Source of the DNA: an uncultured Bacteroidales bacterium
GTDB taxonomy: Bacteria > Bacteroidota > Bacteroidia > Bacteroidales > FEN-979
NCBI GenBank assembly: GCA_903824935.1
Contig: CAIJYT010000078.1
Location: forward strand, 1-64,000
Length of the DNA: 64,000 bases
Direction of reading: 5' to 3'
Shown here: positions 15,997 to 64,000 of the stretch, piece by piece
How the letters are laid out: every line of letters starts with the position of its first letter
How positions within the stretch are numbered: position 1 is the stretch's first letter
Notes under the pieces: model-generated
The model's database searches: none
What the model was told of the DNA's origin: nothing
The model's input: only the letters and a program-made list of their open reading frames with translations
Made by a program: the position numbers and the translations under genes

Positions 15997-15997
15997 A

Positions 15998-35045: not shown

Positions 35046-35367
35046 GGTTTTATTCTTTTATGATTTCAGGATTATTCAATAATTTGCGAACGTATTACGA
35101 ACAGCTAATTTAACAATTCTTTCGATCAATTCTTTGGACCGATGCGGTCGTACCGATGATAAAATAACCTGTATGCACTTAAGTTGATCCGGTGAAGATA
35201 TTGTTTAAAAAGGCTTATGATCGCAATGACAGGCATATGAAAAATAGTTGGTGGAAAAAGGTTGTTTATAGAAAAACAATATTATACCTTTATTGCATTA
35301 CAAACCGAACTGAAACCTATTGTTAGAGGTGCCAAAAGTAATATTGACCCAAAAGGGGAGGATTATC

Positions 35368-35397
35368 ATGGAACTGGTTATTTGCACAGGATATTAA
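35368..35397 (+). CDS. 9-codon upstream ORF (MELVICTGY) with a strong Shine-Dalgarno sequence, ending 1 nt before the rSAM start. A possible leader/uORF.
   Basis: aaaaggggaggattatcATGgaactggttatttgcacaggatatTAAcATG: GGAGG sits 6 nt upstream of the ATG. Such SD sequences are otherwise rare in this window. Confidence 0.25.
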   Translation: MELVICTGY

Positions 35398-35398
35398 C

Positions 35399-37027: not shown

Positions 37028-37037
37028 AACTGAATGT

Positions 37038-43577: not shown

Positions 43578-43588
43578 GGCCTGTTGGA

Positions 43589-50306: not shown

Positions 50307-50319
50307 AAGTTGTAGTTTT

Positions 50320-53300
50320 TCAAGGTTGATTGTTATCTGGAGTAATTCGTTTTCTGTTCTGTTGTTTGATGTTCCTGTTACGCATCGCAACACGTTTTTC
50401 GACATCGATGTATGGATGAACCGGTTTGTCCTTGCGTAGAAATGCTGCCAGGCTTCGGATCGTGGGATAATGAAACAAGTCGACAATACTGACTTCTTCT
50501 TTTAACTTTTCAGCGATCAGCTCTTTAAGTCTGACAAGCAGCAATGAATGCCCTCCTACTTCAAAGAAATTATCATGTGGAGTGAATGCCCCATGATCGA
50601 GTATCTCTTTCCAGAGCTCGATAAGTGAGGCCTCTGTTTCATTTATATGCCGGTGAATGAATTCCGGGACATCAGGCACCGAGGGTCTTAGATTTATCAG
50701 TGCTTTAAAATCGGTCTTACCGTTCGGCAGCGTTGGAATAGCAGGGGCTATAATGAAATGGCCAGGGATCATATAGGCAGGAAGATGAAGACGCAGAAAT
50801 TCTCTCAAATCCTTTTCATTTAATGATGCTGAAGGTTCCTGAACTATATACGCTGTAAGGCGGATGTCTTCTTCCCCATGCTCCCGCGCATAAACCACAA
50901 CCCCTCTTACTGCCGGGAAACGGAGAATGTTCGATTCGACCTCTCCCAGCTCGATCCGGAAGCCCCTCACTTTTACCTGATGGTCAGTCCTGCCCAGGAA
51001 TTCTACCGAGCCGTCATACATATACCTCCCCAGATCTCCGGTTTTATAGATCCTGCTTCCCTTGCCTTGTAAAAAGGGATCCTGAAGAAACCTGGAATCC
51101 GTTTGAGCCTTATCTTCGAAATATCCATCGGCAAGTACTTTCCCCCCCAGATATATCTCCCCGGTCACTCCAACCGGAACAGGTTCCAGCTTTTCATCCA
51201 GGATATAAAAAGCTGCATTGTAAATGGGAAACCCGATAGGAACCATTCTGAGAGGACTGTTACGCCGGCAATGCCAGCAAGCCATGTAAACCGTTGCTTC
51301 TGTCGGGCCATAGAGGTTGATCAATACACCTTCCGATTCACTGAATATCTGCTCCTGCAGTGATCGTGAAAGCTTCTCTCCCCCCGAAATAATGTTTTTC
51401 AGAAATCTGGCTCGCCTTAGGACCCCGGCATCACACAAGGCTTTCAGGCCCGAAGGGACAAACTGTACCGTGTTCACCTTCATCTCGTTTAAGAGGGCCT
51501 CGATTTTTTCAGGAGCCTGAAGCTCGCTTCGTTTCTCAAGCACCAGGCTGGCTCCGCTGATCAGGGGAGTGAAAAGCTCGAGAAAAGAAATGTCAAAATT
51601 GATGGATGTTGTTGAAAGGAAGGTATCAGAGGAGGAGATCTTCAGCTCCGTCTTCATCCACACCATGAAATTAAGAAGACTGTCGTGGCGTATCATCACG
51701 CCTTTTGGATTTCCTGTTGAACCGGAAGTGAACATGATATATGCAAGATTCCCGGGAATATCCGGTTCAACGCCTGCGAGCGGTTTCAGCTGGAAAGATT
51801 CATTAAGCAGTTCGCTCACAGGAATATTTTGTTCCGACAATTCCCGCTTCCAGCTCATATGCTCTTCATCAACAATAAGGAAGCGTACTCTGGTCTTTTC
51901 AATAACATATCGCAACCTTTCGTCGGGATAATACGGATCAAGGGGGATATATATGCCTCCGGCTCTAAATACGGCCATGATGCACATTACCATGTTCGGG
52001 GAGTTTTCAAGATGAATCCCGACCGGCACCCCGTTTCTCACACCCAAACGCCGCAGATTTCCGGTAATGACTTCGGTGCGCCTGGCCATTTCCCTGTAGG
52101 TGATCACTTCCTGCCTTGATACCAGTGCAGGCACACCAGGAGTGATCTCTGCCTGCCGGCAAACCATGTCAGCCACGTTTCCATTGAACTGATTTTCATA
52201 AGTAGTCTCATTCCATTTATAAACGAGCAGGTTACGTTCTTCCTGGGAAATAAGGTTTATTGCATGTATCCTGGTTGCAGGGGAAACACTGATTTCTTCC
52301 AGAATCTGAATGAAATGATCAAGGAGTATCTCAATGGTTCCGGGGTGATACAACCGGGATGAAAATGTTAGGACTATTTCGGCTGTGTCTCCGATATCGA
52401 AGATCTCGGAAAAAATATCGAATTTGGACCGGCCAAAGAATTCTTCCCTGGCAAAGCCGCTGAGGCCCGTATGGGTTGAAAACTTCCAGTCTGTTTCGTG
52501 GTAGGCGAACATGATCTGAAAAAACGGATTGATTCCCGGGATCCTATCAGTTTTCAGCACTTCTCCCGCACGGGTAAATGGAAACCTGGAATGCTCAAGT
52601 CCTTCAAGAATCTGATTCCTTAATAATCCCATCCAATCTCTGAAAGCCATGCCGGGATCGATGTTTGTCCTCACCAGCATGGTATTTACGAAATAACCAA
52701 TCAACGATAAATATGATTTATTAAGCCGGTTTGAAACAGGAGTCCCGATAAGGATATCCTTGCGCCCGGTATGACGGAAAAGGAGAATCGAGAAAGCGCC
52801 CAAACAGGTCATAAACATGCTGGCTCCCATATCATCGCTAAGGCTCTTCAATCTGGATTTAAGCAAAGGATGGATCGTTCTCCGGGCCTGGCCTCCTTCA
52901 TGTGTGGGGAGCTCCGGACGTGTATAATCAGTCGGGAGCTCGAAAAAAGTAGGGGCATTCGCAAGCTGTTTTTGCCAGTACGATCTGTCGGTTTCATATT
53001 GCAGGCTACTCATGTATATTTTCTCTTCACTGCAAAACTGAGAATAGGATGCTAACGGGACCTGGAGAAAGGAATCATTACCCTTATGCGCCTGATCATA
53101 GAACTTCGAAAGCTGATTTAAAAAGATCCTGAATGAGAACCCGTCGAAAACACTATGATGAACAATAAAAGCGAGCAGATGCCGGTCGTCATCAAGTCGG
53201 TACAGAATAAACCGGAAGGGTTTTCCCTGCTCTAAAGTGAAAGGACGGTCGGCCATACCACGGGCATGATCAAGGGCCGTGTTCAGGGAAACAGCCTGAG

Positions 53301-55410
53301 CTCCGGTTTGTGATCTGAATACCTCCAGGACATTTTTCTCCGAACCCGGATTCACTTCAACGCACTGATTGCCATTTCCCGGCATTATTTTGCGCAGCGC
53401 TTGTTCCAGGCTTACAATGTCGGGCGAACCTGTAAGCAGGATACTGTAAAAAATATTATAGGCCGAAAGGCCAGGTTCAATTTGCTGGAGAAACCAGAGG
53501 GCTTTCTGGTTTTCCGATAAACCTGTTTGAAAGATGTCGTTTGACAAAGCTTCACGGGACTGATTTTGCTGTGACGCCATTTTGACCGTTGCCTGTTCGT
53601 TATCTGTGGCCCATTCTTTGTTTCGGTCCGATTCATCAAATATCTGAAGCCTTGCCAGTGCGCCGGGAGCAGGGTAGTCGAAAATGTGTCTGATTTGCAG
53701 ATCAATGCCTGTTTTCGCCCTGACATCCAAAACAATAGCGCCAGCTTTCAATGAATTACCGCCCAGGTCAAAGAAGTTATCATCCAAACCGATACCTTCG
53801 AGCCCAAGCACTTCTTCCCAGGTCCGGACTATCATTTTTTCGTTGGTAGTCGTGGGCGGCACTGCAGGATAACCTAAATCGGGCCGCTGAATTCCGGGAA
53901 GTGGAAGTGATTTGCGGTCAATCTTTCCATTTGGGAGTTGCGGAAGATGATCGAGTGTGATAAAAACCTCAGGTATCATATAATCAGGCAGGACGTGTAA
54001 CAGGATTTTACGCAGCTGGTCTACCGGCACTGAGTTGCCGGTTTTGAAAACCAGGTAGGCAACCAGTCGTTTCCCGTTTTGCTTCTCATCCACAACTTTT
54101 ACAATTGCCTGTTTCACCTCCGGGATGACAATAAGGGCAAGTTCGATTTCAGAAAGTTCGATACGAAACCCGCGTATTTTAACCTGTTGGTCTTTACGTC
54201 CGATAAAAATCAGTCTGCCCGATTGATCCTGCTTCACCAGATCGCCGGAGCGATAAACATTGATTGCCTCCTCTCCATTGAGTTTGAACGAAAAAAAAGT
54301 GGTCCCTGTGATTTCGGGCAGGTTCAGATAGCCCCTTGCAATGCCATCTCCGCTGGCAAGAAGTTCACCGGCAACGCCCTGGTCAACAGGATTCATGTCA
54401 TCGCCGACAATAAAAATAGTCGTTCCGTGAAGCGGTTTGCCGATATGGGCCGGTTCGCCGGGATATAACCTTGCTGCAGTAAGGTTTGCGGTTGCTTCTG
54501 TTGGGCCGTAAAGATTCCAAAGCTGAAGAGAAGGTAAAGTGCTGAAGCTTCTTTTCAGAAGATCATCTGTAACAGCTTCTCCCGAAAGATAAACACATGA
54601 GGGCGCCGACGATCTGATGTTTATACCCTCTGGGGTGTCTAAATAGTTTAAGATTTCAGACCAAAGCGTCGGTACACAGTATAAACCCATTCCCGGATGT
54701 GCTGAATACCATTGAAGCAGTTTTTCGGGTTGCCTTATTACCAAAGGATCAAGGATATGAAGGGTTTTTCCTGCCAGTAAGGTTGAAAAAAACTGCGTTA
54801 CAGCTGCCGCGAAAATAAAAGAGGATGTCAAGGGTAATGCGACCTGGCTTTCAGGCATTACCCATTGGCAAAACCAGTGGACATAATAATTCAGGTTTCG
54901 CTGTTCAATCATGACCCCTTTTGGATTGCCGGTGGAACCGGATGTGTACAGTATATAGGCAAGATCAGAAGCCTGAACCGGCTTAGCTTTTGGAATTCTT
55001 GTATTGGTAAGATTCTTCACTTCAGGCCAATCAGGAATGAATATTGGAGTTTGCCCGAAAGCCGGTATGTGCGATAATGAATTGTCGGTGATAACAAGCC
55101 TGGCGTCTGCATCCTTAAGAATATACCTGATCCGTTCTTCAGGAAAATTCGAAGAAAGAGGGATATAGGCAGCTCCGGATTTGAGCAAAGCAATAATCGA
55201 AATGGCAAGGTTAACTGAGGGGTATAAATTAATCCCGACCACACAGCCTGGGCCTATTCCCCATTCCTGTAACTGCCATGCCAGATTGGAGGAGAACTGA
55301 TCAAGCCTGCTGAAACTAATGCATTCATCCCGACAGATAATGGCTTCTGCATCAGGAAAAGCTTCCGATCTGAGAAAGATCTCCTCATGTATTGGAATAA
55401 ATCTGCTCAT
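50320..55410 (-). CDS. NRPS initiation + elongation module: A-T-C-A-T.
   Basis: A1 has YTSGSTGNPKGVMIEQ. T1 has FFDLGGNSLKAG. C has NQKALWFLQQ and IVHHSVFDGFS (HHxxxDG). A2 has FTSGSTGNPKGVMIRH and SINFDISFLE. T2 has FFEVGGHSLLLVRL. Confidence 0.9.
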   Translation of the reverse strand: MSRFIPIHEEIFLRSEAFPDAEAIICRDECISFSRLDQFSSNLAWQLQEWGIGPGCVVGINLYPSVNLAISIIALLKSGAAYIPLSSNFPEERIRYILKDADARLVITDNSLSHIPAFGQTPIFIPDWPEVKNLTNTRIPKAKPVQASDLAYILYTSGSTGNPKGVMIEQRNLNYYVHWFCQWVMPESQVALPLTSSFIFAAAVTQFFSTLLAGKTLHILDPLVIRQPEKLLQWYSAHPGMGLYCVPTLWSEILNYLDTPEGINIRSSAPSCVYLSGEAVTDDLLKRSFSTLPSLQLWNLYGPTEATANLTAARLYPGEPAHIGKPLHGTTIFIVGDDMNPVDQGVAGELLASGDGIARGYLNLPEITGTTFFSFKLNGEEAINVYRSGDLVKQDQSGRLIFIGRKDQQVKIRGFRIELSEIELALIVIPEVKQAIVKVVDEKQNGKRLVAYLVFKTGNSVPVDQLRKILLHVLPDYMIPEVFITLDHLPQLPNGKIDRKSLPLPGIQRPDLGYPAVPPTTTNEKMIVRTWEEVLGLEGIGLDDNFFDLGGNSLKAGAIVLDVRAKTGIDLQIRHIFDYPAPGALARLQIFDESDRNKEWATDNEQATVKMASQQNQSREALSNDIFQTGLSENQKALWFLQQIEPGLSAYNIFYSILLTGSPDIVSLEQALRKIMPGNGNQCVEVNPGSEKNVLEVFRSQTGAQAVSLNTALDHARGMADRPFTLEQGKPFRFILYRLDDDRHLLAFIVHHSVFDGFSFRIFLNQLSKFYDQAHKGNDSFLQVPLASYSQFCSEEKIYMSSLQYETDRSYWQKQLANAPTFFELPTDYTRPELPTHEGGQARRTIHPLLKSRLKSLSDDMGASMFMTCLGAFSILLFRHTGRKDILIGTPVSNRLNKSYLSLIGYFVNTMLVRTNIDPGMAFRDWMGLLRNQILEGLEHSRFPFTRAGEVLKTDRIPGINPFFQIMFAYHETDWKFSTHTGLSGFAREEFFGRSKFDIFSEIFDIGDTAEIVLTFSSRLYHPGTIEILLDHFIQILEEISVSPATRIHAINLISQEERNLLVYKWNETTYENQFNGNVADMVCRQAEITPGVPALVSRQEVITYREMARRTEVITGNLRRLGVRNGVPVGIHLENSPNMVMCIMAVFRAGGIYIPLDPYYPDERLRYVIEKTRVRFLIVDEEHMSWKRELSEQNIPVSELLNESFQLKPLAGVEPDIPGNLAYIMFTSGSTGNPKGVMIRHDSLLNFMVWMKTELKISSSDTFLSTTSINFDISFLELFTPLISGASLVLEKRSELQAPEKIEALLNEMKVNTVQFVPSGLKALCDAGVLRRARFLKNIISGGEKLSRSLQEQIFSESEGVLINLYGPTEATVYMACWHCRRNSPLRMVPIGFPIYNAAFYILDEKLEPVPVGVTGEIYLGGKVLADGYFEDKAQTDSRFLQDPFLQGKGSRIYKTGDLGRYMYDGSVEFLGRTDHQVKVRGFRIELGEVESNILRFPAVRGVVVYAREHGEEDIRLTAYIVQEPSASLNEKDLREFLRLHLPAYMIPGHFIIAPAIPTLPNGKTDFKALINLRPSVPDVPEFIHRHINETEASLIELWKEILDHGAFTPHDNFFEVGGHSLLLVRLKELIAEKLKEEVSIVDLFHYPTIRSLAAFLRKDKPVHPYIDVEKRVAMRNRNIKQQNRKRITPDNNQP

Positions 55411-55448: not shown

Positions 55449-56978
55449 TTATTTAATATTAAATACCCAGGGATTGTAGTTTACGAGCTGATCGGACGAT
55501 GTCGGGAAGTCGCCAATAAGGTATTTCAGGGTGATTATCCTGGTCATGATGCCCAGGCGGCCTGCTTCCACATTCTTAAGAGCTGTATTATAGTCCATAT
55601 ACGTATTAATCATGTTGATCTGTGTGGAAGCTCCCATTTTAAATTTTCGAACTTCACTCTGGAATGTTTTTTTCTCAATTTCAGCAAGCCTGATCTGATT
55701 TTTAAATAAGGGTAAGAGATTACCAAGATCGCTCAAGAGTTTAGTTACTTGCATTTTGGAATCAAATCTCACTTGTTCAAGCTGGGTTTTATTAAATTCG
55801 TAAGATGACAGTTTTGAAAGGTAGTCTCCTTTCCGCTCTTCATTTTTAAAAGGTAAATTATATAACAAGGTAAGATTCACGGAAGAGCCCGGTGATCCGC
55901 TTTTTATGGTTTGGGTAAATTCAGAAACAGGCAGGCCATTGGTCATACCAAAATACATATAGTTAAGATTAAGATTAAATTCATTTAGCTTGTTGTGCTT
56001 GGCCCCGTTCATTGCAATCTGTGAGGAGGAAGTAAGCAATTCCTGGCTTTTGTAATAAGGCGTGTTTACAATCATTGAATCAAGGTTCCTGGAAACATAG
56101 GCTGAATATTTTTCCCAGGGAAAGGATAAAGGATTGGGAAGTGAATCAAGAAAAACCGGGAGGGCGTTTGCCTTGAATGTTCCTTTGGCGCCAATTGAAG
56201 TGACCAGGTCATATAATGAATTGACGATATCATTGCGCGCCAATGAAAATTGCTGGGCAATGCTTAGTTGGTAGGCCTCGGCACGAAAGGTTTCCACTTT
56301 CGCCAATTGTTCATCCAATATCATCGTTTTAATATCGTTAAGGTACTGGCGTGCATCGTTATCAGCATCTTTCAGTATCCTGAAGACCGCAACGGAAGAG
56401 TATGAACTATAGTAGGATGATAATGTGTTTTTAATAAACTGGCAGATCTCATCGGTAAACGAAACATTCTGTGCTTTGTTCATCAGCAGCGTTGAAAGGT
56501 ATGTAACATTCTCGGAGTTATACCGGCCAAGATCGCGTAAAAGCGGAATTGAAATTCCTGCCCATATCCCCGATTCATTTACTGCCAAAAATTGAGTCTC
56601 AAAAACTCCCGGAACTCCCATCTGAATCTGCTGTTCCGTGAAAAGCCTCACTCCCGAATAAAACTTTATCCCCAAACGGGTTGGAATTGAGACTTGTCCG
56701 GTAAAAGTATATGAATCAATGAAGGACCAGGTTGGATCAGTACCATATAACCCGTTAAAGTTGAATGAGAGAACCGGATTAAAAAAGCCTTTGGTGCTGA
56801 TTAACTGACCGAAGCTTTCACCCACAACATGTCTTTTTAATTTGATGTTGAAATTTGCGTCAAGGCCGATTTGTAATACTTTAAAGGTTGACAGTGAATC
56901 ATAATTAATTATCGGCTGGCTTTTTACAACAAGTGTTCCTGCTGCAAGAAGGATGATGATCAGAATTTTCTTTTTCAT
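55449..56978 (-). CDS. TolC-family outer-membrane efflux channel.
   Basis: 509 aa with a signal peptide MKKKILIIILLAAGTLVVKS and a two-repeat OEP-like organisation. The stop is only 38 nt upstream of the NRPS start. Confidence 0.65.
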   Translation of the reverse strand: MKKKILIIILLAAGTLVVKSQPIINYDSLSTFKVLQIGLDANFNIKLKRHVVGESFGQLISTKGFFNPVLSFNFNGLYGTDPTWSFIDSYTFTGQVSIPTRLGIKFYSGVRLFTEQQIQMGVPGVFETQFLAVNESGIWAGISIPLLRDLGRYNSENVTYLSTLLMNKAQNVSFTDEICQFIKNTLSSYYSSYSSVAVFRILKDADNDARQYLNDIKTMILDEQLAKVETFRAEAYQLSIAQQFSLARNDIVNSLYDLVTSIGAKGTFKANALPVFLDSLPNPLSFPWEKYSAYVSRNLDSMIVNTPYYKSQELLTSSSQIAMNGAKHNKLNEFNLNLNYMYFGMTNGLPVSEFTQTIKSGSPGSSVNLTLLYNLPFKNEERKGDYLSKLSSYEFNKTQLEQVRFDSKMQVTKLLSDLGNLLPLFKNQIRLAEIEKKTFQSEVRKFKMGASTQINMINTYMDYNTALKNVEAGRLGIMTRIITLKYLIGDFPTSSDQLVNYNPWVFNIK

Positions 56979-57000: not shown

Positions 57001-59925
57001 TCATGCCAGCTGACGTTTTGTGAGTTCAGCAAAAAAACCATTTTTTTCAACAAGTTCTTTATAGCTTCCCTCTTCGATAAGCTGACCCTTGTCAAGAACA
57101 AAGATACGGTCGGCATTCATGATGGTACTAAGGCGGTGTGCTATAACAATGCGTGTCGCATTCAGCTTTTCGATACTTGCGCTTACGATCCCCTGGGTTT
57201 CATTGTCAAGAGCGCTGGTAGCCTCGTCGAATATGAAAATCCTGGGGTTGCGGATCAATGCCCTGGCAATGACGATTCGCTGTTGCTGGCCCCCCGATAA
57301 AGTATCGCCGCCCGGTGGCAGGATAGTATACATTTTGTTGGGGAGATTCATGATTTCATCAGCGCATCCAGCCATCCTGGCAGCTTTCCAGGCATCCTCT
57401 TCAGTGTACAACGATGAACCGGTGATATTGTAAAGTACGGTTCCCTGCATGATCCTGGAGTTTTGTAAAACTACCCCCAGCTGATCTCTGATCCCACGGA
57501 CATCGAGGTCTTTAAGTTCTTTATTATCGAAAAGAATGCTTCCAACGTTATATTTTTCAAATCCCAGCAACAATCTTACCAGTGTTGATTTTCCCGAACC
57601 TGAGCTGCCGGTGATTGCTACAAACTGTCCCGGACGAATAGACATGTTAAGTTCTTTCAGGCTCCAGTCAGGAGTGTCGGGGTATTTAAAACTCAGCTGG
57701 GTGATTTCGATACCGCCGCTAAGTTCACCAGGATCGGGTTTCTCGAGAAGGTCTTCCGTATCGGCCTCCAATATTGGTTGAAACAGCTGATAGGTGGGCT
57801 TGATATTAAGTAAGGGGACTGTTACCATGAAGGTTTGAATCATTGCACCCTGAAAGCTGAGATAAGCGCTGTTGAATGCTACAAAATCACCGATACCGAA
57901 CCCGGGCAATCCCGATTTAAAAATTGAATACACCCTGATAAAGATCAGCATGGAAGCGAGAACCGGAAAAGTAGCAGAAAAGATACTTGCAATCATAAGA
58001 AGAGTACGTTTCTGCCGGTAATGGTCCTTTTGCTGCGCATATCGGTCGGCCCATAGTGAAAAGACCTTTTCTTTACTCCCGGTAACCCTGATTTTGTTAA
58101 TTCCACGGATAGCCATCAGCAGGAAGCCCGAGATCATGGCATCCATGCGGCGCATGAATACCACATGTTTATATGCAAGAAGGCTTATAGTGAGTGTAAA
58201 TGCGGCGACAACGAGGCCCAGAAAAAGCGCAAGCAGGGCAAGTTTCAGGTCGTAATAGAAAAGCAGGGCAAGATAAAAGACAGAGAAGATTCCTGAAATC
58301 ATGGCGCCCAGGACCGTGGTGGACAGGGTGTCACGAATCCGTTCAATCCCCATACTTCGTTCAGCAAGGTTCCCAGGTGTGTAATTTCTGAAGAAATCGA
58401 CCTGAAGGGAGAGTATCCTGTCCCATAATGCTGATTGGAGTTTGAACCCTGCTTTCCCGGCCATACGGAGAACGGCGATGGATTTGGCAAAGTTCAGCAG
58501 CCCGATGGTTATCACGCAAATAACCATAATAGCTCCAATCTGCCAGAGTTCTTTAGTATCTCCGCCAGGGATGACAGTATTGAACACATAGCCGCCAACA
58601 ACCGGTATTACCAAAGCAAGTAAAGCGCCGATCACGCCGATCACTAAAAAACTCAGGATATCACGGTAGGTGAACTGAAGAGCAAAACTGATGAGATCCT
58701 TGCCCTGAAGTTTGCCTTTTGGGAAAGGAGTGAAGAAACTATACGCCCTGGGTTCGAGGAGTTGTTGGACAGATTCGTCAACCAATTCTTTTTTACGATT
58801 TTTCAGATCAATCATCCAGTACTGAGTGCTGCCTTTGGCAATGAGGCCTACAGGGGTATTGCCGGCTTTTAGAAAACCAAGCATGGAGCCGGCATTATTG
58901 GTCCACCAGTGCGGTTCAAGCATTACACTCCTTGATCGGATGTTTGAAGCTCTGAGGATGTTCCAGAGGGAATCATGTTTACCGCTGATTCGGTTCCCGG
59001 GGTTAATGAATTCGATTTTCTCTCCCTTCCCGATCAGCTGACAGGTTTGGAGTAAAAGCATATTAGGAGTCGCCGGAATTGTTGGAATTCCTCCCTGGTT
59101 TTTATCATCAAAGAGATCATCAGTTACCTTGCCGGAAATGATAGACTTAAAGCGGTTCAATGCGCTTATCACTGCATTGGCTCTAAAGGCATATGAATCA
59201 TCCACATGAGTAAGTGACACTTTCTGCTCATCAGAATACAGATTCTGAAGAACGGTTATGATCAGTTCAGTAAACCCGAAAAACTGAGACAGGTAGAGAT
59301 CATTGGTAACGACCTGCTTTGTAGTATAAATGGTTTTTTGAACAGTAGCCCCAAAAGACATCCATAGATTTGAAGTAAGGGGAAGAAGTGTCAGTCCATT
59401 GGCAAGGGGATCGGCAAAGTTGTAATACATTGGCTTCAGTCCTGCCGATTCAACCCATAAAACTTCCTCCGGACCTGATGCACCGTAGCTTTTCACTGGA
59501 TCTGCTGAAAAAACAGGTGCTGCTTTGATCCCGTTTAAAAGGGGCATGGTCCCAAAGTGGTTCATTCCGTCAGAAACTCTGAGTAACCATTTATCAAAAA
59601 GAAAGGTGGCATAATCAGGATTTGCCGACACCAATCTGTTCAATGAACCTGAATCGAGAACTCCGATTGTACAATTTGTCAAGGCACAAATTATAATAGA
59701 CAGGGCGTCGCTTTCTTTGAAGCCGGGAATCAGAAACGGTGCGTTGATGCGGAAAAGGAACAATCGCCGGCCAGGTCCCGTGGGCAGTTTTTCAACATAA
59801 AAAATGTCAGCATCGCCAGCTTCAAGGTAAAAAGCTGCAGGAGAGGCACTATTCAGAGTAAGCACTTTATTGCTGGGCAACTGCTCGGTACGAGTATAAA
59901 AAGAAGAAATCACCTGCTGCTCCAT
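57001..59925 (-). CDS. ABC exporter (TMD + NBD) with a ~410-aa N-terminal cytoplasmic extension.
   Basis: Walker A GSSGSGKST, signature LSGGQQQRIVIARAL, Walker B IFIFDEATSALD. Six predicted TM helices begin around aa 420. The long N-terminal domain resembles the regulatory extensions of peptide-exporter ABC partners. Confidence 0.75.
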   Translation of the reverse strand: MEQQVISSFYTRTEQLPSNKVLTLNSASPAAFYLEAGDADIFYVEKLPTGPGRRLFLFRINAPFLIPGFKESDALSIIICALTNCTIGVLDSGSLNRLVSANPDYATFLFDKWLLRVSDGMNHFGTMPLLNGIKAAPVFSADPVKSYGASGPEEVLWVESAGLKPMYYNFADPLANGLTLLPLTSNLWMSFGATVQKTIYTTKQVVTNDLYLSQFFGFTELIITVLQNLYSDEQKVSLTHVDDSYAFRANAVISALNRFKSIISGKVTDDLFDDKNQGGIPTIPATPNMLLLQTCQLIGKGEKIEFINPGNRISGKHDSLWNILRASNIRSRSVMLEPHWWTNNAGSMLGFLKAGNTPVGLIAKGSTQYWMIDLKNRKKELVDESVQQLLEPRAYSFFTPFPKGKLQGKDLISFALQFTYRDILSFLVIGVIGALLALVIPVVGGYVFNTVIPGGDTKELWQIGAIMVICVITIGLLNFAKSIAVLRMAGKAGFKLQSALWDRILSLQVDFFRNYTPGNLAERSMGIERIRDTLSTTVLGAMISGIFSVFYLALLFYYDLKLALLALFLGLVVAAFTLTISLLAYKHVVFMRRMDAMISGFLLMAIRGINKIRVTGSKEKVFSLWADRYAQQKDHYRQKRTLLMIASIFSATFPVLASMLIFIRVYSIFKSGLPGFGIGDFVAFNSAYLSFQGAMIQTFMVTVPLLNIKPTYQLFQPILEADTEDLLEKPDPGELSGGIEITQLSFKYPDTPDWSLKELNMSIRPGQFVAITGSSGSGKSTLVRLLLGFEKYNVGSILFDNKELKDLDVRGIRDQLGVVLQNSRIMQGTVLYNITGSSLYTEEDAWKAARMAGCADEIMNLPNKMYTILPPGGDTLSGGQQQRIVIARALIRNPRIFIFDEATSALDNETQGIVSASIEKLNATRIVIAHRLSTIMNADRIFVLDKGQLIEEGSYKELVEKNGFFAELTKRQLA

Positions 59926-59926
59926 A

Positions 59927-62098
59927 TCAGTTGAGTTTTACCAAATTATAATAAAGTCCCTGCTCATCGCTGATCATCTCATCGTGTGTACCCCGTTGAA
60001 CGACTTTTCCTTTATCCAAAACAATGATTTCATCGCAATCACGGATCGTACTGAGCCGGTGGGCAATAATGAGTGTAGTACATCCCCTGCGGCGAATATT
60101 GTTGTCGATGACCTTTTCGGTGTTGGCATCTAATGCGCTGGTTGCTTCATCCATCACAAGGATAGTCGGGTTTACGACTAATGCACGTGCAATTTCTATG
60201 CGCTGACGCTGGCCTCCGCTAAGGTTGTTTCCTGCGTTGAGGAGAATGCCGGTATATCCGCCGGGCCTCGATGAGATGACGTCATGAATACATGCATCCC
60301 TGGTCGATTGGATAATATCGGGAGTTCCGATCGTATTATTCCACATCGTAATATTGTCGTTTACGGTTCCCTTGAAAAGGAATATTTCCTGGTCTACCAG
60401 AGAGACAGAGTTCCTGATGACATCCTCTGGAAATGAATTCCGTTCATGTCCATCGAAAAGGATTTCACCGGCCCAGGGATGGTATAGGCCAGCAACCAAT
60501 TTGGCCAGAGTCGATTTCCCTGAGCCTGAACCTCCAACGAGGGCAATACGTTTGCCAGGTTCAACATGAAGTGAAAAATTTTCAATCAGAGGCTCGCTAA
60601 AGCGGTCATATCCAAAAGTAACATTCTTAAAATCGAGGAATCCGTGTAATTTGGAATTGGAAGGTATTAAGGATCCGGGGTTGTCGTTAGCCTCATTTTT
60701 AAAATAAACATCTTCATTGGTCGATAATGCGTCCTGAATCGTGTCGATATTACTCTTTGCTCCCTGGAGGTCACTGCCCATCGAAACTACCGCCTTAACA
60801 GGGCCTGTAAAATTTGACATCAGGCTCTGGAAGGCGATAAAGACACCTATTGTCATCTCCCCGTAGATAACAAGCAGTCCGCCTAAAGTCAGCAGAATAA
60901 TGGTATTCAGGTTTGACAGAAAATCGGGTAAGGCGGCCAGCAGGTTAGAAGTCACATTCAGCTTTTGATCAAAGACCACTGCATTGGAAAGATTTCCCGA
61001 CCAGAGGCCATAAAAATCGTTTTCGGAGCCCGTGGCTTTAATGGTTTCAATTTGTTCAAGCCCGACTCCTGCAGTGCTGAAGGTACGTTGATTTCGCTCA
61101 AATAGCAACTGGTTGAGGGTGGATCTTTTTTCAGAAATTATCCGAAGAAATAACAGGTTAACAAGTATTACGGTAACGCCGATTACTGTAAGAAGTAAAT
61201 TATACTGGATCATAACGATCGCGTAAAACAAAACCGTAATGATACTTGAGACCGTCATTGTAAGTTCCGTTGAAAGCAGCGTGGCAAGATCATCATTGAG
61301 CTGAACGCGTTTGAAGATCTCTCCGGGTTGACGCGTCATAAAGAAGCGGATAGGCAGTTTCAATATATGCATCAGCAGTTTCGAAGACTCAACGATGGCA
61401 AGGCGTAATTCAATCTTGACAAGAATTTTTTGCTGCAAAAAAGTAAGTACTCCGTTAAAAAGGAAAAGTCCCGCGATGAGAACAATCATGGGCTTAAAGT
61501 AAGGCTGTTGTAAGCCAATAATATCGTCAAAAAAAAGTTTATTCAAGCCTGCCATAATGATAGCAGGAATGATCAGTATAGTACCACATATCATCACGAA
61601 TACAAGGTCAAACCGGCTTGGTTTTATTCGTGTCCATACCTTGTTGTAAAAACCATTCTGCTTTTTATCAGGTTTGAACGCGGGTCCGGGAGTAATAATC
61701 AAAACCGTTTTGTTATAGATTTTTTCCAGCTCCTGCCTACTGAGGATCTTGTTTCCTTCATGAGTATCGTTCAACAGGAAACCGTCGCTGGTATAACCGG
61801 TTAAAACGCTGAAATTTCCGCCTTGAACTCCAATGATCGCGGGAAGCTGAAGCGATTTCAGTTCAGCCACGGAACAATTTACAACTTCCGACTTAAATCC
61901 ATGGCTGATGGCGACCTTCATCAAACGGCTGGCTGGAATTATTGAATTATCCGAAATTCCACATTCCTGGTTCAGAGCATCCTTTGCCGGGTAACAATGG
62001 TAATAAGAAAAAACCATTGTGAGTGCGATCGCACCGGATTCATTTTCGCCAATCTGGAGAATTACCGGAACCTTTTTTTTAATATGCTCATCTCTCAT
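59927..62098 (-). CDS. ABC exporter with an N-terminal C39-like domain whose catalytic residues are substituted (Cys->Ser, His->Asn).
   Basis: N-terminus LQIGENESGAIALTMVFSYY (versus canonical Q....DCGxACL) and GVQGGNFSVL (versus NHFVV). Walker A GGSGSGKST, LSGGQRQRIEIARAL, ILVMDEATSALD. Begins 1 nt after the upstream ABC gene. Confidence 0.8.
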   Translation of the reverse strand: MRDEHIKKKVPVILQIGENESGAIALTMVFSYYHCYPAKDALNQECGISDNSIIPASRLMKVAISHGFKSEVVNCSVAELKSLQLPAIIGVQGGNFSVLTGYTSDGFLLNDTHEGNKILSRQELEKIYNKTVLIITPGPAFKPDKKQNGFYNKVWTRIKPSRFDLVFVMICGTILIIPAIIMAGLNKLFFDDIIGLQQPYFKPMIVLIAGLFLFNGVLTFLQQKILVKIELRLAIVESSKLLMHILKLPIRFFMTRQPGEIFKRVQLNDDLATLLSTELTMTVSSIITVLFYAIVMIQYNLLLTVIGVTVILVNLLFLRIISEKRSTLNQLLFERNQRTFSTAGVGLEQIETIKATGSENDFYGLWSGNLSNAVVFDQKLNVTSNLLAALPDFLSNLNTIILLTLGGLLVIYGEMTIGVFIAFQSLMSNFTGPVKAVVSMGSDLQGAKSNIDTIQDALSTNEDVYFKNEANDNPGSLIPSNSKLHGFLDFKNVTFGYDRFSEPLIENFSLHVEPGKRIALVGGSGSGKSTLAKLVAGLYHPWAGEILFDGHERNSFPEDVIRNSVSLVDQEIFLFKGTVNDNITMWNNTIGTPDIIQSTRDACIHDVISSRPGGYTGILLNAGNNLSGGQRQRIEIARALVVNPTILVMDEATSALDANTEKVIDNNIRRRGCTTLIIAHRLSTIRDCDEIIVLDKGKVVQRGTHDEMISDEQGLYYNLVKLN

Positions 62099-62127: not shown

Positions 62128-63378
62128 CTACTCGAAAAATGATTTAAAGATCGGAATGATATAGTCAATAGGTGCTTTTTCCCTTACCCGTATGGAGGCC
62201 CTGCAAAGTGTACCGGTATTGATGGCGTATGGCGGTCCCGTTTTATTCGACCATTCATATCCGCTTTTTGTGCTAGGATCGGGGATAAGAGCGATTTTAA
62301 CACGGTAAGTCGGGCCCTGTTTTTCGATCAGCTCAACGAGATCAGGGTTCCCTAATTCATCAAGGATCGAGCTTGTATTGGAAACAAAATGATTAACCTC
62401 CACTACCTCACCCATCAACCATCCATAAAGATTTTCATTCACGGTAAAAGGTTTTACCATAACCCTCATACCTGGTCCAACAACCGCGTTTGAATTAAAC
62501 GGGATAAAAAGGTCGAGCAAATGATTTCGGGAATTTTCCAGATCTTCAACCACCATCATGCGGGTACCGGCATTTACATAATCGCCGCTGGTCACTGATT
62601 TATCAATGATCATGCCATCAACAGGGCTGTTGATGATGGTCTGTCTGTTATACTCATCCTGGAGATCATTAATTTTTTTCTTGAGAATCTGGATCTGGCC
62701 ACTGTAATCTTCCTGCTTGAATTGCCTGTCATAGTTCCAGGATTGCTGATCCAGCTGATTGGTTTTTACCTGTTGTTCGAGTTGGGTACGCTGATTATGG
62801 GCATCAGACAAATCATTTTTTGCATTAACGAAGTTCTCCCTGGTGGCAAGTCCTTTATCCCAGAGATCCTGTTGTTGCTGCATCTTCAGCTCAAAAAAAT
62901 TAATCAGATCCTGAACATGCAACAATTCTCTTTTCAGGCGTTCTTCCTCCAGACTATAAAATCTCATTTTACTAGGATAATCTCGTGTGTCCCTGGTCAG
63001 GAGCAAAGAATCCTGAAATCCCAGCACATCGAGTTCTGCATACAGTTCAACCAACTGATGCCTGAGCTGTGGTTGAACAAGTTTAATCAGAACATCTCCC
63101 GCATTGACTTTCTCACCTAGTTCATACCTGACTTCTTCAACCCCCCCGGGATAGAGGGCAATAATTCCGTTAAGGCCTTTCTTGCTGATTATTTCACCTA
63201 AACCGTCAATTTCTTGTGGAATGCTTCCGAATATTCCCCAGATAATTGTGATTATGGTAAGAAGCCCTAAAGCAGAAAGAGAGATCCAATACCTAGGGCG
63301 GGTAATTTTCAACATTTGGTTTATTTCCTCAGGGTTGCCTGCTGCTCCTGTAGGTTGCGATTTTTCTGCCTTGTCCAT
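62128..63378 (-). CDS. HlyD-family membrane-fusion/adaptor protein for the paired ABC exporters (the track start is TTG 63402; the first ATG is at 63378).
   Basis: N-terminal TM helix (ISLSALGLLTIITIIWGIF), a long coiled coil (QQQDLWDKGLATRENFVNAKNDLSDAHNQRTQLEQQ) and a C-terminal beta-barrel/lipoyl-like region. Confidence 0.75.
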   Translation of the reverse strand: MDKAEKSQPTGAAGNPEEINQMLKITRPRYWISLSALGLLTIITIIWGIFGSIPQEIDGLGEIISKKGLNGIIALYPGGVEEVRYELGEKVNAGDVLIKLVQPQLRHQLVELYAELDVLGFQDSLLLTRDTRDYPSKMRFYSLEEERLKRELLHVQDLINFFELKMQQQQDLWDKGLATRENFVNAKNDLSDAHNQRTQLEQQVKTNQLDQQSWNYDRQFKQEDYSGQIQILKKKINDLQDEYNRQTIINSPVDGMIIDKSVTSGDYVNAGTRMMVVEDLENSRNHLLDLFIPFNSNAVVGPGMRVMVKPFTVNENLYGWLMGEVVEVNHFVSNTSSILDELGNPDLVELIEKQGPTYRVKIALIPDPSTKSGYEWSNKTGPPYAINTGTLCRASIRVREKAPIDYIIPIFKSFFE

Positions 63379-63423
63379 AATAAAATATATTGCTGGTAAC
63401 AAAAAACCTGCAAAGGCGGGTTG

Positions 63424-63533: not shown

Positions 63534-63989
63534 CTACTTCTCGTGTTTATGAAAAGCCATTCCTTTCTTTATAATACTCTTCTTCCATTCCCCATTTTCG
63601 TCCAGATGGGATGTTTCGTGGTGCTTCTTGACGATGGCTGCTATCTTATCGGGCATTTTTGTTGCTTTTCCAGGGATGCCGCCTGATGCTGGTCCTTTTG
63701 GTAGAGAAGGGCTAGAACTCTTTTTTTGATTTTCCATAATTGTTGAGTTTTGATTTGTAGGAATAAATTGGGATTGTACTACTTCTTGTGAAGAATTGTG
63801 TTTATTAAGTTGGATCTTTTTGATGATTAAAATAATTCCATAAACGAACATGAATGTCGTTGCATAGCTCCATATCTGTGTTATTAAGCTGATTTTATTG
63901 AAACCTTCCACACCATAAAGATGAATCAGCGTGATCCTTAAAAAAATATCAGAAAAGTCACGAAACGCCAGAAACATAGTCAGAAACAT
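63534..63989 (-). CDS. Hypothetical protein in an AT-rich segment. Either a membrane protein that continues beyond the window edge, or a 67-aa peptide starting at the internal Met (~63734).
   Basis: The ORF track gives 151 aa with hydrophobic N-terminal segments and a Lys/His-rich C-terminal tail (MENQKKSSSPSLPKGPASGGIPGKATK...KKHHETSHLDENGEWKK...HKHEK). There is no in-frame stop before the window edge at 64000. Local GC is visibly lower than the neighbouring genes. Confidence 0.3.
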   Translation of the reverse strand: MFLTMFLAFRDFSDIFLRITLIHLYGVEGFNKISLITQIWSYATTFMFVYGIILIIKKIQLNKHNSSQEVVQSQFIPTNQNSTIMENQKKSSSPSLPKGPASGGIPGKATKMPDKIAAIVKKHHETSHLDENGEWKKSIIKKGMAFHKHEK

Positions 63990-64000
63990 GAAATATTTAA

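What the first reader, a model, noticed from the sequence alone, without database searches (positions are those of the whole stretch)
61680..62098. Peptidase-dead C39-like domain on the first ABC exporter of an NRPS-PKS operon
The N-terminal ~140 aa align to bacteriocin-processing C39 peptidase domains. The oxyanion Gln is kept (LQIGENE). The nucleophile is Ser instead of Cys (ESGAIAL versus DCGxACL). The catalytic His is Asn (GGNFSVL versus NHFVV). The Asp is retained (LLNDTHEG). This matches the C39-like-domain state known from HlyB-type transporters, which bind substrates without cleaving them. It suggests a leader-peptide exporter scaffold re-used for a non-ribosomal product, or for an uncleaved protein or peptide.
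Basis: partly seen in the sequence, partly recalled or inferred. Interest (0 to 1): 0.65.

Follow-up and report, generated by a model that had tools for sequence, protein, structure and literature searches.

The report
Dead peptidase domain on NRPS-linked exporter
A bacteriocin-type export pump in a freshwater Bacteroidota genome has lost its leader-cutting active site (Cys to Ser, His to Asn). A whole clade of such pumps sits next to NRPS/PKS genes instead of peptide precursor genes, which suggests a peptide exporter re-used for a non-ribosomal product.

Summary
Window 61679-62098 (minus strand) encodes a complete C39 fold in which the LahT catalytic residues Gln21/Cys27/His101/Asp117 read Gln15/Ser21/Asn95/Asp111.

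The gene is the ABC1 subunit of an NHLM/NHLP-type cassette (HlyD-ABC1-ABC2) plus a TolC-like gene. It lies directly upstream of an NRPS-PKS-ER-NRPS(TE)-PPTase line.

All 51 closest full-length homologues (Bacteroidales lake MAGs, Flavobacteriaceae, Saprospiraceae and others) carry Ser or Thr at the nucleophile. They form one clade in a tree built without the N-domain, and the His site holds nine or more different residues. Their loci carry NRPS or PKS genes and no double-glycine precursor. The nearest Cys-type relative instead sits beside three textbook GG-leader bacteriocin genes.

The dead domain is kept (dN/dS about 0.16; AF2 pLDDT 88.6) but evolves far faster than active C39 domains. It is not an HlyB-type CLD by descent or by hallmark.

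Most likely a peptide-processing exporter was captured once by a secondary-metabolite cluster and now exports without cleavage, with the domain kept as a docking or assembly module. A conserved Pro-rich small ORF upstream of HlyD remains a possible alternative ligand or cargo.

This is a new variant of a known kind, of moderate interest.

The parts
61679..62098 (-). Catalytically degenerate C39 (C39-like) domain, residues 1-140 of ABC1. Gln15 is at 62054-62056, Ser21 (in place of Cys) at 62036-62038, Asn95 (in place of His) at 61814-61816, and Asp111 at 61766-61768.
   Evidence: Pfam PF03412 E 2e-18. Alignment to LahT 6mpz with the published catalytic numbering. AF2 pLDDT 88.6. Foldseek best hit 6mpz, TM 0.82-0.89.
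59927..62098 (-). ABC1: C39-like domain + type IV ABC transmembrane domain + NBD, 723 aa. Walker A, signature, Walker B and H-loop motifs are all canonical.
   Evidence: Pfam ABC_membrane and ABC_tran. NCBIfam TIGR03796 NHLM_micro_ABC1 scores 812.8 bits, just below the 853.3 cutoff. Motifs were read from the translation.
62128..63402 (-). HlyD-family periplasmic adaptor of the NHLM type, 424 aa from the listed TTG start. An ATG nine codons downstream may be the real start.
   Evidence: TIGR03794 scores 256.7 bits against a cutoff of 156.2. The gap to ABC1 is 29 nt.
57001..59925 (-). ABC2: second ABC half-transporter, 974 aa, and the presumed heterodimer partner. It carries about 290 extra N-terminal residues of unknown fold.
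   Evidence: TIGR03797 scores 774.6 bits against a cutoff of 709.4, matching residues 291-973. The gap from ABC1 is 1 nt.
55449..56978 (-). TolC-like outer-membrane factor, 509 aa.
   Evidence: Pfam OEP E 3.1e-06. It is conserved downstream of ABC2 in all related loci.
63534..63737 (-). Conserved small ORF of 67 aa (MENQKK...). It has a basic, Pro-rich N-terminus and a conserved C-terminal HLDxNGxW module. It is a possible accessory factor or cargo.
   Evidence: Present directly upstream of HlyD in 23 of 28 assessable Ser-clade loci. No Pfam or NCBIfam match. Only 10 homologues were found in the large protein collection.
50320..55410 (-). NRPS 1 (A-T-C-A-T), 1696 aa.
   Evidence: Pfam. The gap from the OMF gene is 38 nt.
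44724..50486 (-). Type I PKS module (KS-AT-KR-DH-ACP). The listed TTG start overlaps NRPS 1, so the true start is probably near 50310.
   Evidence: Pfam.
43589..44734 (-). Zinc-dependent dehydrogenase or enoyl-reductase-like protein.
   Evidence: Pfam ADH_zinc_N and ADH_N.
39438..43682 (-). NRPS 2 (C-A-T-TE), the terminating module.
   Evidence: Pfam.
38734..39459 (-). 4'-phosphopantetheinyl transferase.
   Evidence: Pfam ACPS.

Best explanation
ABC1 is the peptidase-bearing subunit of an NHLM/NHLP-type bacteriocin exporter (HlyD adaptor + ABC1/ABC2 pair) that lost proteolysis. In one Bacteroidota lineage the nucleophile Cys became Ser, and afterwards the general-base His drifted freely; it is Asn in this window. 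The cassette gained a TolC-like gene and became part of NRPS/PKS gene clusters.

It now most likely works as an envelope-spanning tripartite pump that exports the cluster's hybrid peptide-polyketide without any cleavage step. On this reading the substrate is selected in the transmembrane domains. The dead C39 fold is kept as a structural or regulatory module that docks on the TMD/NBD and on the cytoplasmic end of the adaptor.

What is shown here: the residue substitutions, the intact fold, the single origin of the clade, the linkage to NRPS/PKS genes, the absence of GG-leader genes, and the relaxed but still purifying selection on the domain.

What is inferred: the lack of protease activity, the identity of the cargo, and the docking role.
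For: 1. Catalytic positions. Gln15/Ser21/Asn95/Asp111 align to LahT Gln21/Cys27/His101/Asp117.

2. Clade-wide state. All 51 full-length homologues down to about 42% identity carry Ser (one carries Thr). The more distant hits are canonical Q-C-H-D.

3. Codons. Ser is always encoded by TCN, and all four codons are used (TCC 15, TCA 6, TCT 3, TCG 2). In the 26 genes the His site is Y, N, K, G, V, E, D or S, and the wider protein set adds R, H and Q. The Asp and Gln positions also vary.

4. Single origin. An NJ tree built on TMD+NBD only recovers the 51 Ser/Thr proteins as one clade with no Cys-type protein inside.

5. Fold retained. AF2 pLDDT is 88.6 and the best match is LahT with rmsd 1.3 A. 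dN/dS of the domain is 0.157, against 0.042 for the TMD and 0.039 for the NBD.

6. Constraint shifted. At equal NBD divergence the N-domain is the best-conserved part in Cys-type proteins (for example 0.55 against 0.36 for the TMD). In the Ser clade it is the worst-conserved part (0.28 against 0.47 for the TMD), and the TMD is more conserved than in Cys-type proteins.

7. Linkage. The order HlyD-ABC1-ABC2-OMF-NRPS is found in 21 of 24 genome loci. Two further loci have PKS and glycosyltransferase genes instead, and one is too short to judge. The link to NRPS genes persists where the gene order is rearranged (L032). It holds in the metagenome loci as well.

8. Contrast. The nearest Cys-type relative is flanked by three CTB-family GG-leader genes and a cyc_nuc_ocin protein. 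A GG-leader HMM finds nothing in the window or in the Ser-clade loci (best E 0.69, against 1e-11 to 1e-12 for the controls).

9. Operon structure. Gaps between consecutive genes from HlyD to NRPS 1 are 1-38 nt.

10. Precedent for a docking role. The HlyB CLD makes the main contacts to HlyD through basic residues (PMC11026475).
Against: - No experiment has been done. Loss of activity is inferred from residues only.
- One deep clade member keeps Ser-His-Asp (P0032).
- Invariance of the Ser could mean more than a helix N-cap role.
- A conserved small ORF sits exactly where precursors sit in canonical cassettes, so a protein ligand or cargo is not excluded.
- HlyB-type CLDs are also the fastest-evolving domain and yet act as specific receptors. 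Fast evolution therefore does not prove loss of a binding function.
- dS is saturated (about 1.4-1.8), so the dN/dS values are rough.
- Export of small NRPS/PKS products by this ABC subfamily has no described precedent in the searched literature.
Confidence: 0.6

Rival explanations
1. The dead C39 domain is a receptor for the conserved small Pro-rich protein encoded just upstream of HlyD, and the pump exports that protein uncleaved. A variant of this reading has the small protein acting as an adaptor. This would parallel the way the HlyB CLD binds unfolded HlyA.
For: - The small ORF occupies the position that precursor genes take in the canonical relative.
- It is present in 23 of 28 assessable Ser-clade loci.
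- It is almost confined to these clusters (10 homologues).
- It has no signal peptide and has a conserved N-terminal motif, a low-complexity Pro-rich linker and a conserved C-terminal module.
- In the window residues 19-20 are Gly-Gly, and relatives have GG, GS, GN or GD there.
- Both the CLD and the small ORF evolve fast, as HlyB-type receptor CLDs do.
Against: - The ORF is absent from five Ser-clade loci that still carry NRPS or PKS genes (L023, L027, L028, L031, L032). It therefore cannot be the obligatory cargo.
- It matches no GG-leader or RiPP precursor family.
- The 'GG' is not conserved and lies in Gly/Pro-rich sequence where it is expected by chance.
- A Pro-rich N-terminus cannot form the amphipathic helix that C39 grooves bind (PMC6363468).
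Confidence: 0.2
2. The domain is a purely vestigial remnant with no remaining function, retained only because it is hard to delete.
For: The catalytic and canonical motifs are lost (the Trp, the His, SRDG and NDP). It is the fastest-evolving part of the protein.
Against: - It is retained at full length in all 51 members, down to about 30% domain identity.
- dN/dS of about 0.16 indicates purifying selection.
- Ser is invariant across all four TCN codons.
- The AF2 fold is confident.
- T1SS ABC transporters that need no such domain simply lack it, for example HasD and PrtD (PMC8277102).
Confidence: 0.12
3. The domain is still a hydrolase that uses Ser21 as its nucleophile, that is, a serine version of the C39 protease or an acyl-transferase or esterase acting on the product.
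For: The Ser is strictly conserved. One deep member has Ser-His-Asp (P0032), and other lineages also show S-H-D (P0260).
Against: - In the window the base position is Asn. Across the clade it is Y, N, K, R, G, V, E, D, S or Q, so no general base is conserved.
- Asp111 and Gln15 also vary.
- No other His is conserved.
- A Thr variant exists (P0058).
Confidence: 0.03

Closest known systems
NHLM/NHLP-type bacteriocin export cassette (TIGR03794 HlyD, TIGR03796 ABC1 with peptidase, TIGR03797 ABC2)
   Same: It has the same three-gene architecture and order. The HlyD and ABC2 proteins pass the equivalog cutoffs, and ABC1 aligns end to end with TIGR03796 (812.8 bits). The N-terminal C39 fold is closest to LahT.
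   Different: ABC1 falls just below its cutoff of 853.3 bits. The Cys/His dyad is lost. There is no NHLP, Nif11, CTB or other GG-leader gene nearby. A TolC-like gene has been added. The cassette is embedded in NRPS/PKS clusters.
Active AMS/PCAT peptidase domains (LahT150 6mpz, PCAT1 4ry2/6v9z, ComA 3k8u)
   Same: The fold is the same (TM 0.76-0.89, rmsd 1.3-2.6 A). The position at the N-terminus of a type IV ABC exporter is the same. The Gln and Asp are kept in this window.
   Different: The nucleophile Cys is Ser and the His is Asn. The Trp four residues before the His and the SRDG and NDP motifs are lost. The domain evolves much faster than active domains do.
HlyB-type C39-like domain (CLD) of RTX type I secretion systems (3zua, 7sgr)
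   Same: It is a C39 fold without a nucleophilic Cys, on an ABC exporter that works with a HlyD-family adaptor and a TolC-like channel. Export presumably occurs without cleavage.
   Different: It is an independent origin inside the NHLM ABC1 family. Cys is replaced by Ser, not by Tyr, Leu or Asn. The His-Trp stacking pair is absent. No RTX cargo is seen in the window. The pump is a two-gene ABC1/ABC2 pair rather than a homodimer. Structural similarity is lower (TM 0.70, rmsd 5.9 A). The CLD hallmarks are taken from PMC8277102.
Tripartite ABC pumps that export non-ribosomal products (for example PvdRT-OpmQ and MacAB-TolC handling siderophores; from my own knowledge, and MacAB/enterobactin products as mentioned in PMC8277102)
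   Same: An ABC transporter, a periplasmic adaptor and an outer-membrane factor are encoded with, or serve, an NRPS product.
   Different: Those pumps are MacB-type (type VII) ABC proteins without any C39 domain. The pump here is a PCAT-type (type IV) heterodimer that derives from a peptide-processing exporter.

Membership tests
Peptidase C39 domain superfamily (Pfam PF03412), fold level | Significant match to the family profile and a papain-like C39 fold | tested here: met
   PF03412 scores 66.9 bits against a cutoff of 22. AF2 model pLDDT is 88.6. Foldseek best hits are LahT, PCAT1 and ComA.
Active C39 bacteriocin-processing peptidase | Catalytic Cys on helix 1, plus His and Asp, plus an oxyanion Gln | tested here: not met
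   The residues are Ser21 and Asn95; Gln15 and Asp111 are kept. The same holds across the clade.
Active C39 bacteriocin-processing peptidase | Cleaves double-glycine leaders | not testable with these tools
   This needs an enzyme assay.
NHLM/NHLP bacteriocin export system | Three-gene cassette of HlyD, ABC1 and ABC2 | tested here: met
   TIGR03794 scores 256.7 (cutoff 156.2) and TIGR03797 scores 774.6 (cutoff 709.4). The gene order is HlyD-ABC1-ABC2.
NHLM/NHLP bacteriocin export system | ABC1 reaches the TIGR03796 equivalog cutoff | tested here: not met
   It scores 812.8 bits against a cutoff of 853.3. Sources name its close homologues only 'ATP-binding cassette domain-containing protein'.
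NHLM/NHLP bacteriocin export system | Neighbouring NHLP, Nif11 or other GG-leader precursor genes | tested here: not met
   The adjacent small ORFs have no NCBIfam or Pfam precursor match. A GG-leader HMM run on six-frame ORFs of the window and 30+ loci finds nothing, while the positive controls in L033 score 1e-11 to 1e-12.
HlyB-type CLD (RTX T1SS group 2) | C39 fold lacking the catalytic Cys | tested here: met
   Ser21 occupies the Cys position.
HlyB-type CLD (RTX T1SS group 2) | His retained and stacked on a conserved Trp | tested here: not met
   The His position is Asn95, and there is no Trp in the preceding strand (IIGVQGGN). The hallmark is taken from PMC8277102.
HlyB-type CLD (RTX T1SS group 2) | Cognate RTX cargo with a C-terminal secretion signal | tested here: not met
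   No RTX or other T1SS-type cargo appears among the annotated ORFs of the 64 kb window. A cargo encoded elsewhere in the genome cannot be excluded.
HlyB-type CLD (RTX T1SS group 2) | Sequence or structural affinity to HlyB | tested here: not met
   TIGR01846 scores 400 bits against a cutoff of 725. 3zua has E 0.078 by sequence and TM 0.70, rmsd 5.9 A by structure, against 0.82-0.89 and 1.3 A for LahT.
HlyB-type CLD (RTX T1SS group 2) | Binds the substrate or the adaptor without cleaving | not testable with these tools
   This needs binding assays or structures.

The most novel reading that the evidence does not exclude
The dead C39 domain has been converted into a receptor for the cluster's conserved, disordered Pro-rich small protein. 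That protein is either secreted uncleaved or acts as a carrier or adaptor that hands the NRPS-PKS product to the pump. This would be a ribosomal/non-ribosomal hybrid export route that has evolved from a bacteriocin exporter.
Probability: 0.12. Interest if true: 0.75.

Novelty: new variant of a known kind. Interest (0 to 1): 0.5.

Why it matters
Peptidase-dead C39-like domains are known, but essentially only from RTX-toxin and adhesin secretion systems. This finding is an independent, single-origin loss inside the heterodimeric NHLM-type bacteriocin exporters. It defines a clade of 50+ proteins across several Bacteroidota families, and the clade is consistently wired to NRPS/PKS clusters.

If the inference holds, it matters in three ways:
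- It is a natural example of a peptide-processing exporter turned into a metabolite exporter. The pattern of constraint moves from the peptidase domain to the transmembrane domain.
- It gives genome miners a simple marker (ESG instead of ECG) to separate RiPP-exporting cassettes from non-RiPP cassettes that current annotation lumps together or leaves unnamed.
- It points to a widespread, uncharacterised Bacteroidota hybrid peptide-polyketide cluster. Two cultured carriers make it testable.

Tried and rejected
- **ABC2 N-terminal extension (residues 1-290 and 1-430).** I found no Pfam match, no NCBIfam match and no PDB sequence match. BLASTP found no similarity to the cyc_nuc_ocin protein of the canonical cassette. 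A homologue search returned only 7 proteins. The AF2 model built on them was unusable (pLDDT 39.3), so I made no fold search.
- **Is the ABC2 pre-TMD region a second degenerate C39 domain?** hhalign against the C39 alignment gave only 12% probability over 42 columns. This is inconclusive.
- **GG-leader, NHLP or Nif11 precursor anywhere in the window or the related loci.** None was found.
- **HlyB-type CLD membership.** Rejected on the His-Trp hallmark, the lack of RTX cargo and the similarity ranking.
- **Serine-protease reading.** Rejected because no general base is conserved.
- **Decaying remnant or pseudogene.** Rejected on dN/dS, retention and fold confidence.
- **Is the Ser state unique to this clade?** No. 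Other Ser variants (P0182, P0149, P0260, P0262) fall elsewhere in the tree. They sit in orphan OEP-HlyD-ABC1-ABC2 cassettes or in other contexts without NRPS genes.
- **Literature.** Searches for a C39-like or NHLM-type exporter linked to NRPS/PKS, or for this Bacteroidota cluster, returned nothing relevant.
Full report
**What is at the coordinates**

The finding lies on the minus strand. The ORF at 59927..62098 encodes a 723-aa protein. Its first ~140 residues (window 61679-62098) match Pfam Peptidase_C39 (residues 10-138, E 2e-18, 66.9 bits against a cutoff of 22). An ABC transmembrane region and an ABC ATPase follow.

HMMER aligns residues 7-139 to the LahT protease domain (6mpz, E 3.7e-10). 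The LahT paper gives the catalytic residues as Gln21, Cys27, His101 and Asp117 (PMC6363468). In the alignment these correspond to Gln15, Ser21, Asn95 and Asp111. I checked the codons by eye in the sequence: TCC at 62036-62038 and AAT at 61814-61816.

An AF2 model of residues 1-152, built on a 47-sequence alignment, is confident (pLDDT 88.6, pTM 0.84). Its best PDB matches are:
- LahT: TM 0.82-0.89, rmsd 1.3 A
- PCAT1 and ComA next
- the HlyB CLD clearly lower: 3zua, TM 0.70, rmsd 5.9 A

C46 is conserved, but it is equally conserved in the active enzymes (motif CGVS). No His is conserved across the clade.

**Genomic setting**

NCBIfam shows that this gene is the 'ABC1' member of the three-gene NHLM/NHLP bacteriocin export cassette:

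| Gene | Model | Score (bits) | Cutoff (bits) |
|---|---|---|---|
| HlyD, 62128-63402 | TIGR03794 | 256.7 | 156.2 |
| ABC1 | TIGR03796 | 812.8 | 853.3 (just below) |
| ABC2, 57001-59925 | TIGR03797 | 774.6 | 709.4 |

Downstream on the same strand, with gaps of 1-38 nt, come:
- a TolC-like OEP protein (55449-56978)
- an NRPS, A-T-C-A-T (50320-55410)
- a PKS, KS-AT-KR-DH-ACP (44724-50486)
- an enoyl-reductase-like dehydrogenase
- an NRPS, C-A-T-TE
- a PPTase

The rest of the window is housekeeping or unrelated: an alpha-2-macroglobulin/PBP1C pair, mevalonate pathway genes, peptidases and PKD-domain proteins. It holds no RTX protein.

**The state is a clade character, not a one-off**

A search of 5.8 billion proteins returned 120 best hits. 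I aligned their N-termini. Every full-length hit from 100% down to about 42% identity has Ser at the nucleophile position, in an ESG motif; one (P0058) has Thr. The more distant hits are canonical Q-C-H-D.

At the DNA level, in 26 genes, Ser is always TCN and all four codons are used (TCC 15, TCA 6, TCT 3, TCG 2). The His position is Y, N, K, G, V, E, D or S in those 26 genes, and the wider protein set adds R, H and Q. Asp111 is N or S in 6 genes, including the 96%-identical nearest relative. Gln15 is E in 3 genes.

A neighbour-joining tree built only on TMD+NBD columns, so independent of the N-domain, recovers all 51 Ser/Thr proteins as one clade with no Cys-type protein inside. One deep member (P0032) still has His and Asp. 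The simplest history is that Cys became Ser once and the rest of the triad then decayed.

**Is the domain still under selection?**

Among the Bacteroidales genes, dN/dS is 0.157 for the domain, against 0.042 for the TMD and 0.039 for the NBD. dS is saturated, so these values are rough.

The comparison at equal NBD divergence is more telling:

| Group | NBD identity | N-domain identity | TMD identity |
|---|---|---|---|
| Cys-type | ~0.6 | 0.55 | 0.36 |
| Cys-type | ~0.8 | 0.70 | 0.62 |
| Ser clade | ~0.6 | 0.28 | 0.47 |
| Ser clade | ~0.9 | 0.67 | 0.89 |

In Cys-type proteins the peptidase domain is the best-conserved part. In the Ser clade it is the worst-conserved part, and the TMD is more conserved than in Cys-type proteins.

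What stays invariant in the Ser clade are mostly core positions: E20, S21, G22, L26, M28, L59, P86 and G115. The canonical surface and catalytic motifs are gone: the Trp four residues before the His, SRDG, and NDP.

I read this as follows. The fold is maintained, the catalytic and leader-binding specificity is released, and new constraint has appeared in the membrane domain. Ser and Thr are the classic helix N-cap residues (general knowledge). That would explain an invariant Ser at the start of helix 1 without any chemistry; this is an inference.

**Linkage to NRPS/PKS genes**

A scan of 185,579 species genomes found 24 loci. They come from:
- uncultured Bacteroidales from lakes (nearest: Kiruna_bin-10044, 94-96% identity)
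- Lentimicrobiaceae
- Flavobacteriaceae (Asprobacillus argus S356, Pseudotenacibaculum sp. MALMAid0570, Mesohalobacter, Lutibacter)
- Saprospiraceae
- one MAG binned as Hyphomicrobiales

tblastn with the window's proteins gives the following:
- HlyD-ABC1-ABC2-OMF is present in all 24 loci.
- An NRPS lies within the locus in 21 of them.
- L026 ends inside the OMF gene and cannot be judged.
- L023 and L027 lack the NRPS but have PKS (AT/KR/DH), glycosyltransferase and dioxygenase genes just upstream.

The metagenome contigs agree. In L032, which carries the Thr variant, the gene order is rearranged (NRPS-TE, PPTase, NRPS, then HlyD-ABC1-ABC2-OMF), yet the link to NRPS genes persists.

The contrast with the nearest Cys-type relative is sharp. 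P0057 (44% identity) is preceded by three tandem genes with textbook leaders (ELSEIELDAVAGG, ELSETELDTVAGG, ELSEAELDQISGG). They match the CTB bacteriocin family (NF038167). A TIGR03896 'bacteriocin-type transport-associated' cNMP-binding protein is also present. A leader HMM built from these three finds them at 1e-11 to 1e-12. In the window and in all Ser-clade loci its best hit has E 0.69.

**The small ORF**

A conserved small ORF lies directly upstream of HlyD in most Ser-clade loci. In the window it is 63534-63737, 67 aa. Its features are:
- an N-terminus of the form M-E/K-N-Q-K-K-x-x-I-P-x-P-P
- a Pro/Thr/Ala-rich linker of very variable length (67-171 aa in total)
- a conserved C-terminal module, HH.K.HLD.NG.WKP in Bacteroidales and DIDQYRDANGKITCPVS in Flavobacteriaceae

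A profile search finds it in 23 of 28 assessable Ser-clade loci. It has no Pfam or NCBIfam match. Only 10 homologues, all unnamed, exist in the large protein collection.

It is absent from L023, L027, L028, L031 and L032. All five still have NRPS or PKS genes, so it cannot be the universal cargo. It remains a candidate accessory factor or ligand. The Gly-Gly at residues 19-20 in the window is GG, GS, GN, GD or MN in relatives. It lies in Gly/Pro-rich sequence, so I do not read it as a leader cleavage site.

**Comparison with known systems**

HlyB-type CLDs replace Cys by Tyr, Leu or Asn. They keep a His stacked on a conserved Trp, serve RTX cargo, and bind it at a site opposite the C39 groove (PMC8277102). 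None of these hallmarks is met here. The sequence (TIGR01846 at 400 bits against a cutoff of 725; 3zua at E 0.078) and the model are closer to active LahT-type domains. This is an analogue, not a member.

One property may carry over. In the HlyB/HlyD complex the main inner-membrane contacts are between basic residues of the CLD and acidic residues of HlyD, and the CLD is indispensable (PMC11026475). That is a reason for a tripartite pump to keep a dead C39 fold.

The Ser state also recurs outside this clade. Among the 150 nearest 50%-identity clusters, 129 are Q-C-H-D, 16 have Ser and 3 have another non-Cys residue. Those I could place fall among Cys-type proteins, so they are independent losses. 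They sit in orphan OEP-HlyD-ABC1-ABC2 cassettes or in other contexts without NRPS genes.

**Mechanism proposed**

*Shown here:* a complete envelope-spanning set (adaptor, two ABC half-transporters with canonical Walker A, signature, Walker B and H-loop motifs, and an outer-membrane factor) encoded in one tight gene string with an NRPS-PKS line. It has a folded but triad-less C39 domain and no leader-bearing substrate gene.

*Inferred:* ABC1 and ABC2 form a heterodimer. Together with the adaptor and the channel they export the cluster's hybrid peptide-polyketide without proteolysis. The substrate is recognised in the TMD, and the dead domain docks on the TMD, the NBD or the adaptor. I put this at about 0.6.

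*Rivals:*
- a receptor for the small protein (0.2)
- a functionless remnant (0.12)
- a Ser-nucleophile hydrolase (0.03)

**Novelty and limits**

I found no paper that links a C39-like or NHLM-type exporter to NRPS/PKS clusters, or that describes this Bacteroidota cluster. The searched library is incomplete. Dead C39 domains as such are well known.

I therefore rate this a new variant of a known kind, with moderate interest. It is a clean comparative case and a useful annotation marker (ESG against ECG). There is no biochemical evidence and the cargo is unresolved.

Noticed in passing
window 63534-63737 (minus); relatives e.g. L001:8355-8636, L021:8411-8704, L030:8158-8535: A conserved small ORF lies directly upstream of HlyD. 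It has a basic MxNQKK..IPxPP N-terminus, a Pro/Thr/Ala-rich linker of very variable length (67-171 aa in total) and a conserved C-terminal HLDxNGxWKP / YRDANGKITCPVS module. It matches no known family, and only 10 homologues exist in the 5.8-billion-protein collection.
   Followed up: yes
window 63738-64000 (minus), compared with L005:191-658 and L001:7675-8328: The ORF upstream of the small ORF is the C-terminal part of a VC0807-family membrane protein (NF041646). In the window it runs in frame into the small ORF: TCA stands where L005 has TAA, and there is a 1-nt length difference. In this genome the two are therefore either fused or the small ORF uses an internal start.
   Followed up: partly
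window 59056-59925 (minus; ABC2 residues 1-290) and 58636-59070 (ABC2 residues 286-430): ABC2 carries about 290 extra N-terminal residues that match nothing in Pfam, NCBIfam or the PDB. The Flavobacteriaceae orthologues (about 750 aa) lack most of this extension. The pre-TMD region has a conserved (Q/K)(T/A)C(Q/K)LIG motif and only a weak, inconclusive resemblance to the C-terminal half of a C39 fold (hhalign probability 12%). The AF2 model was unusable (pLDDT 39).
   Followed up: partly
L033:6437-8529: The nearest Cys-type relative of ABC1 is preceded by three tandem CTB-family bacteriocin genes with ELxxVAGG leaders and by a TIGR03896 cNMP-binding 'bacteriocin-type transport-associated' protein. 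This is a clean canonical counterpart for comparison.
   Followed up: yes
L023:2-7003 and L027:1623-8457: In two Flavobacteriaceae loci the same Ser-type exporter cassette lacks both the adjacent NRPS and the small ORF. Instead it lies next to PKS fragments (AT, KR, PS-DH), two glycosyltransferases, a PhyH dioxygenase, a metallo-beta-lactamase-fold protein and APH-type kinases. This suggests a different, possibly glycosylated polyketide, product.
   Followed up: partly
proteins P0032 (L030), P0058 (L032): There are two unusual members of the Ser clade. P0032 keeps Ser-His-Asp, which is formally a possible serine triad. P0058 has Lys/Thr/Gln/Asp at the four catalytic positions, and its cluster has a rearranged gene order.
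   Followed up: partly
L029, L034, L035, L036 (proteins P0182, P0260, P0149, P0262): Independent Cys-to-Ser variants of NHLM-type ABC1 occur outside the NRPS-linked clade. They are found in orphan OEP-HlyD-ABC1-ABC2 cassettes, or next to methyltransferase and sulfotransferase genes, with no precursor or NRPS genes. Their substrates are unknown. Loss of the nucleophile is recurrent in this family, and the replacement is nearly always Ser.
   Followed up: partly
window 33972-38678: Next to the PPTase gene lie two adjacent radical SAM genes on the plus strand (35399-37027, with a B12-binding domain and DUF4070; and 37014-38678). A TylF-type O-methyltransferase gene (33972-35045) lies beside them on the minus strand. 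They may be tailoring genes of the same cluster or a separate unit. I did not check whether relatives conserve them.
   Followed up: no
window 10429-18409 (plus): A bacterial alpha-2-macroglobulin (1855 aa) is immediately followed by a PBP1C-type transglycosylase/transpeptidase (803 aa). This is the well-known A2M-PBP1C gene pair.
   Followed up: no
window 1984-5371 (minus): These are mevalonate pathway genes: HMG-CoA reductase (4058-5371) and a 696-aa protein whose C-terminal half is diphosphomevalonate-decarboxylase-like, with about 350 extra N-terminal residues.
   Followed up: no
ABC1 residues 160-450 across the clade (window 60749-61621, minus): At equal NBD divergence, the transmembrane domain of Ser-clade proteins is more conserved than that of Cys-type relatives (0.47 against 0.36, and 0.81 against 0.62). 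This is the opposite of the trend in the N-domain. It is consistent with a defined substrate site in the membrane domain.
   Followed up: partly
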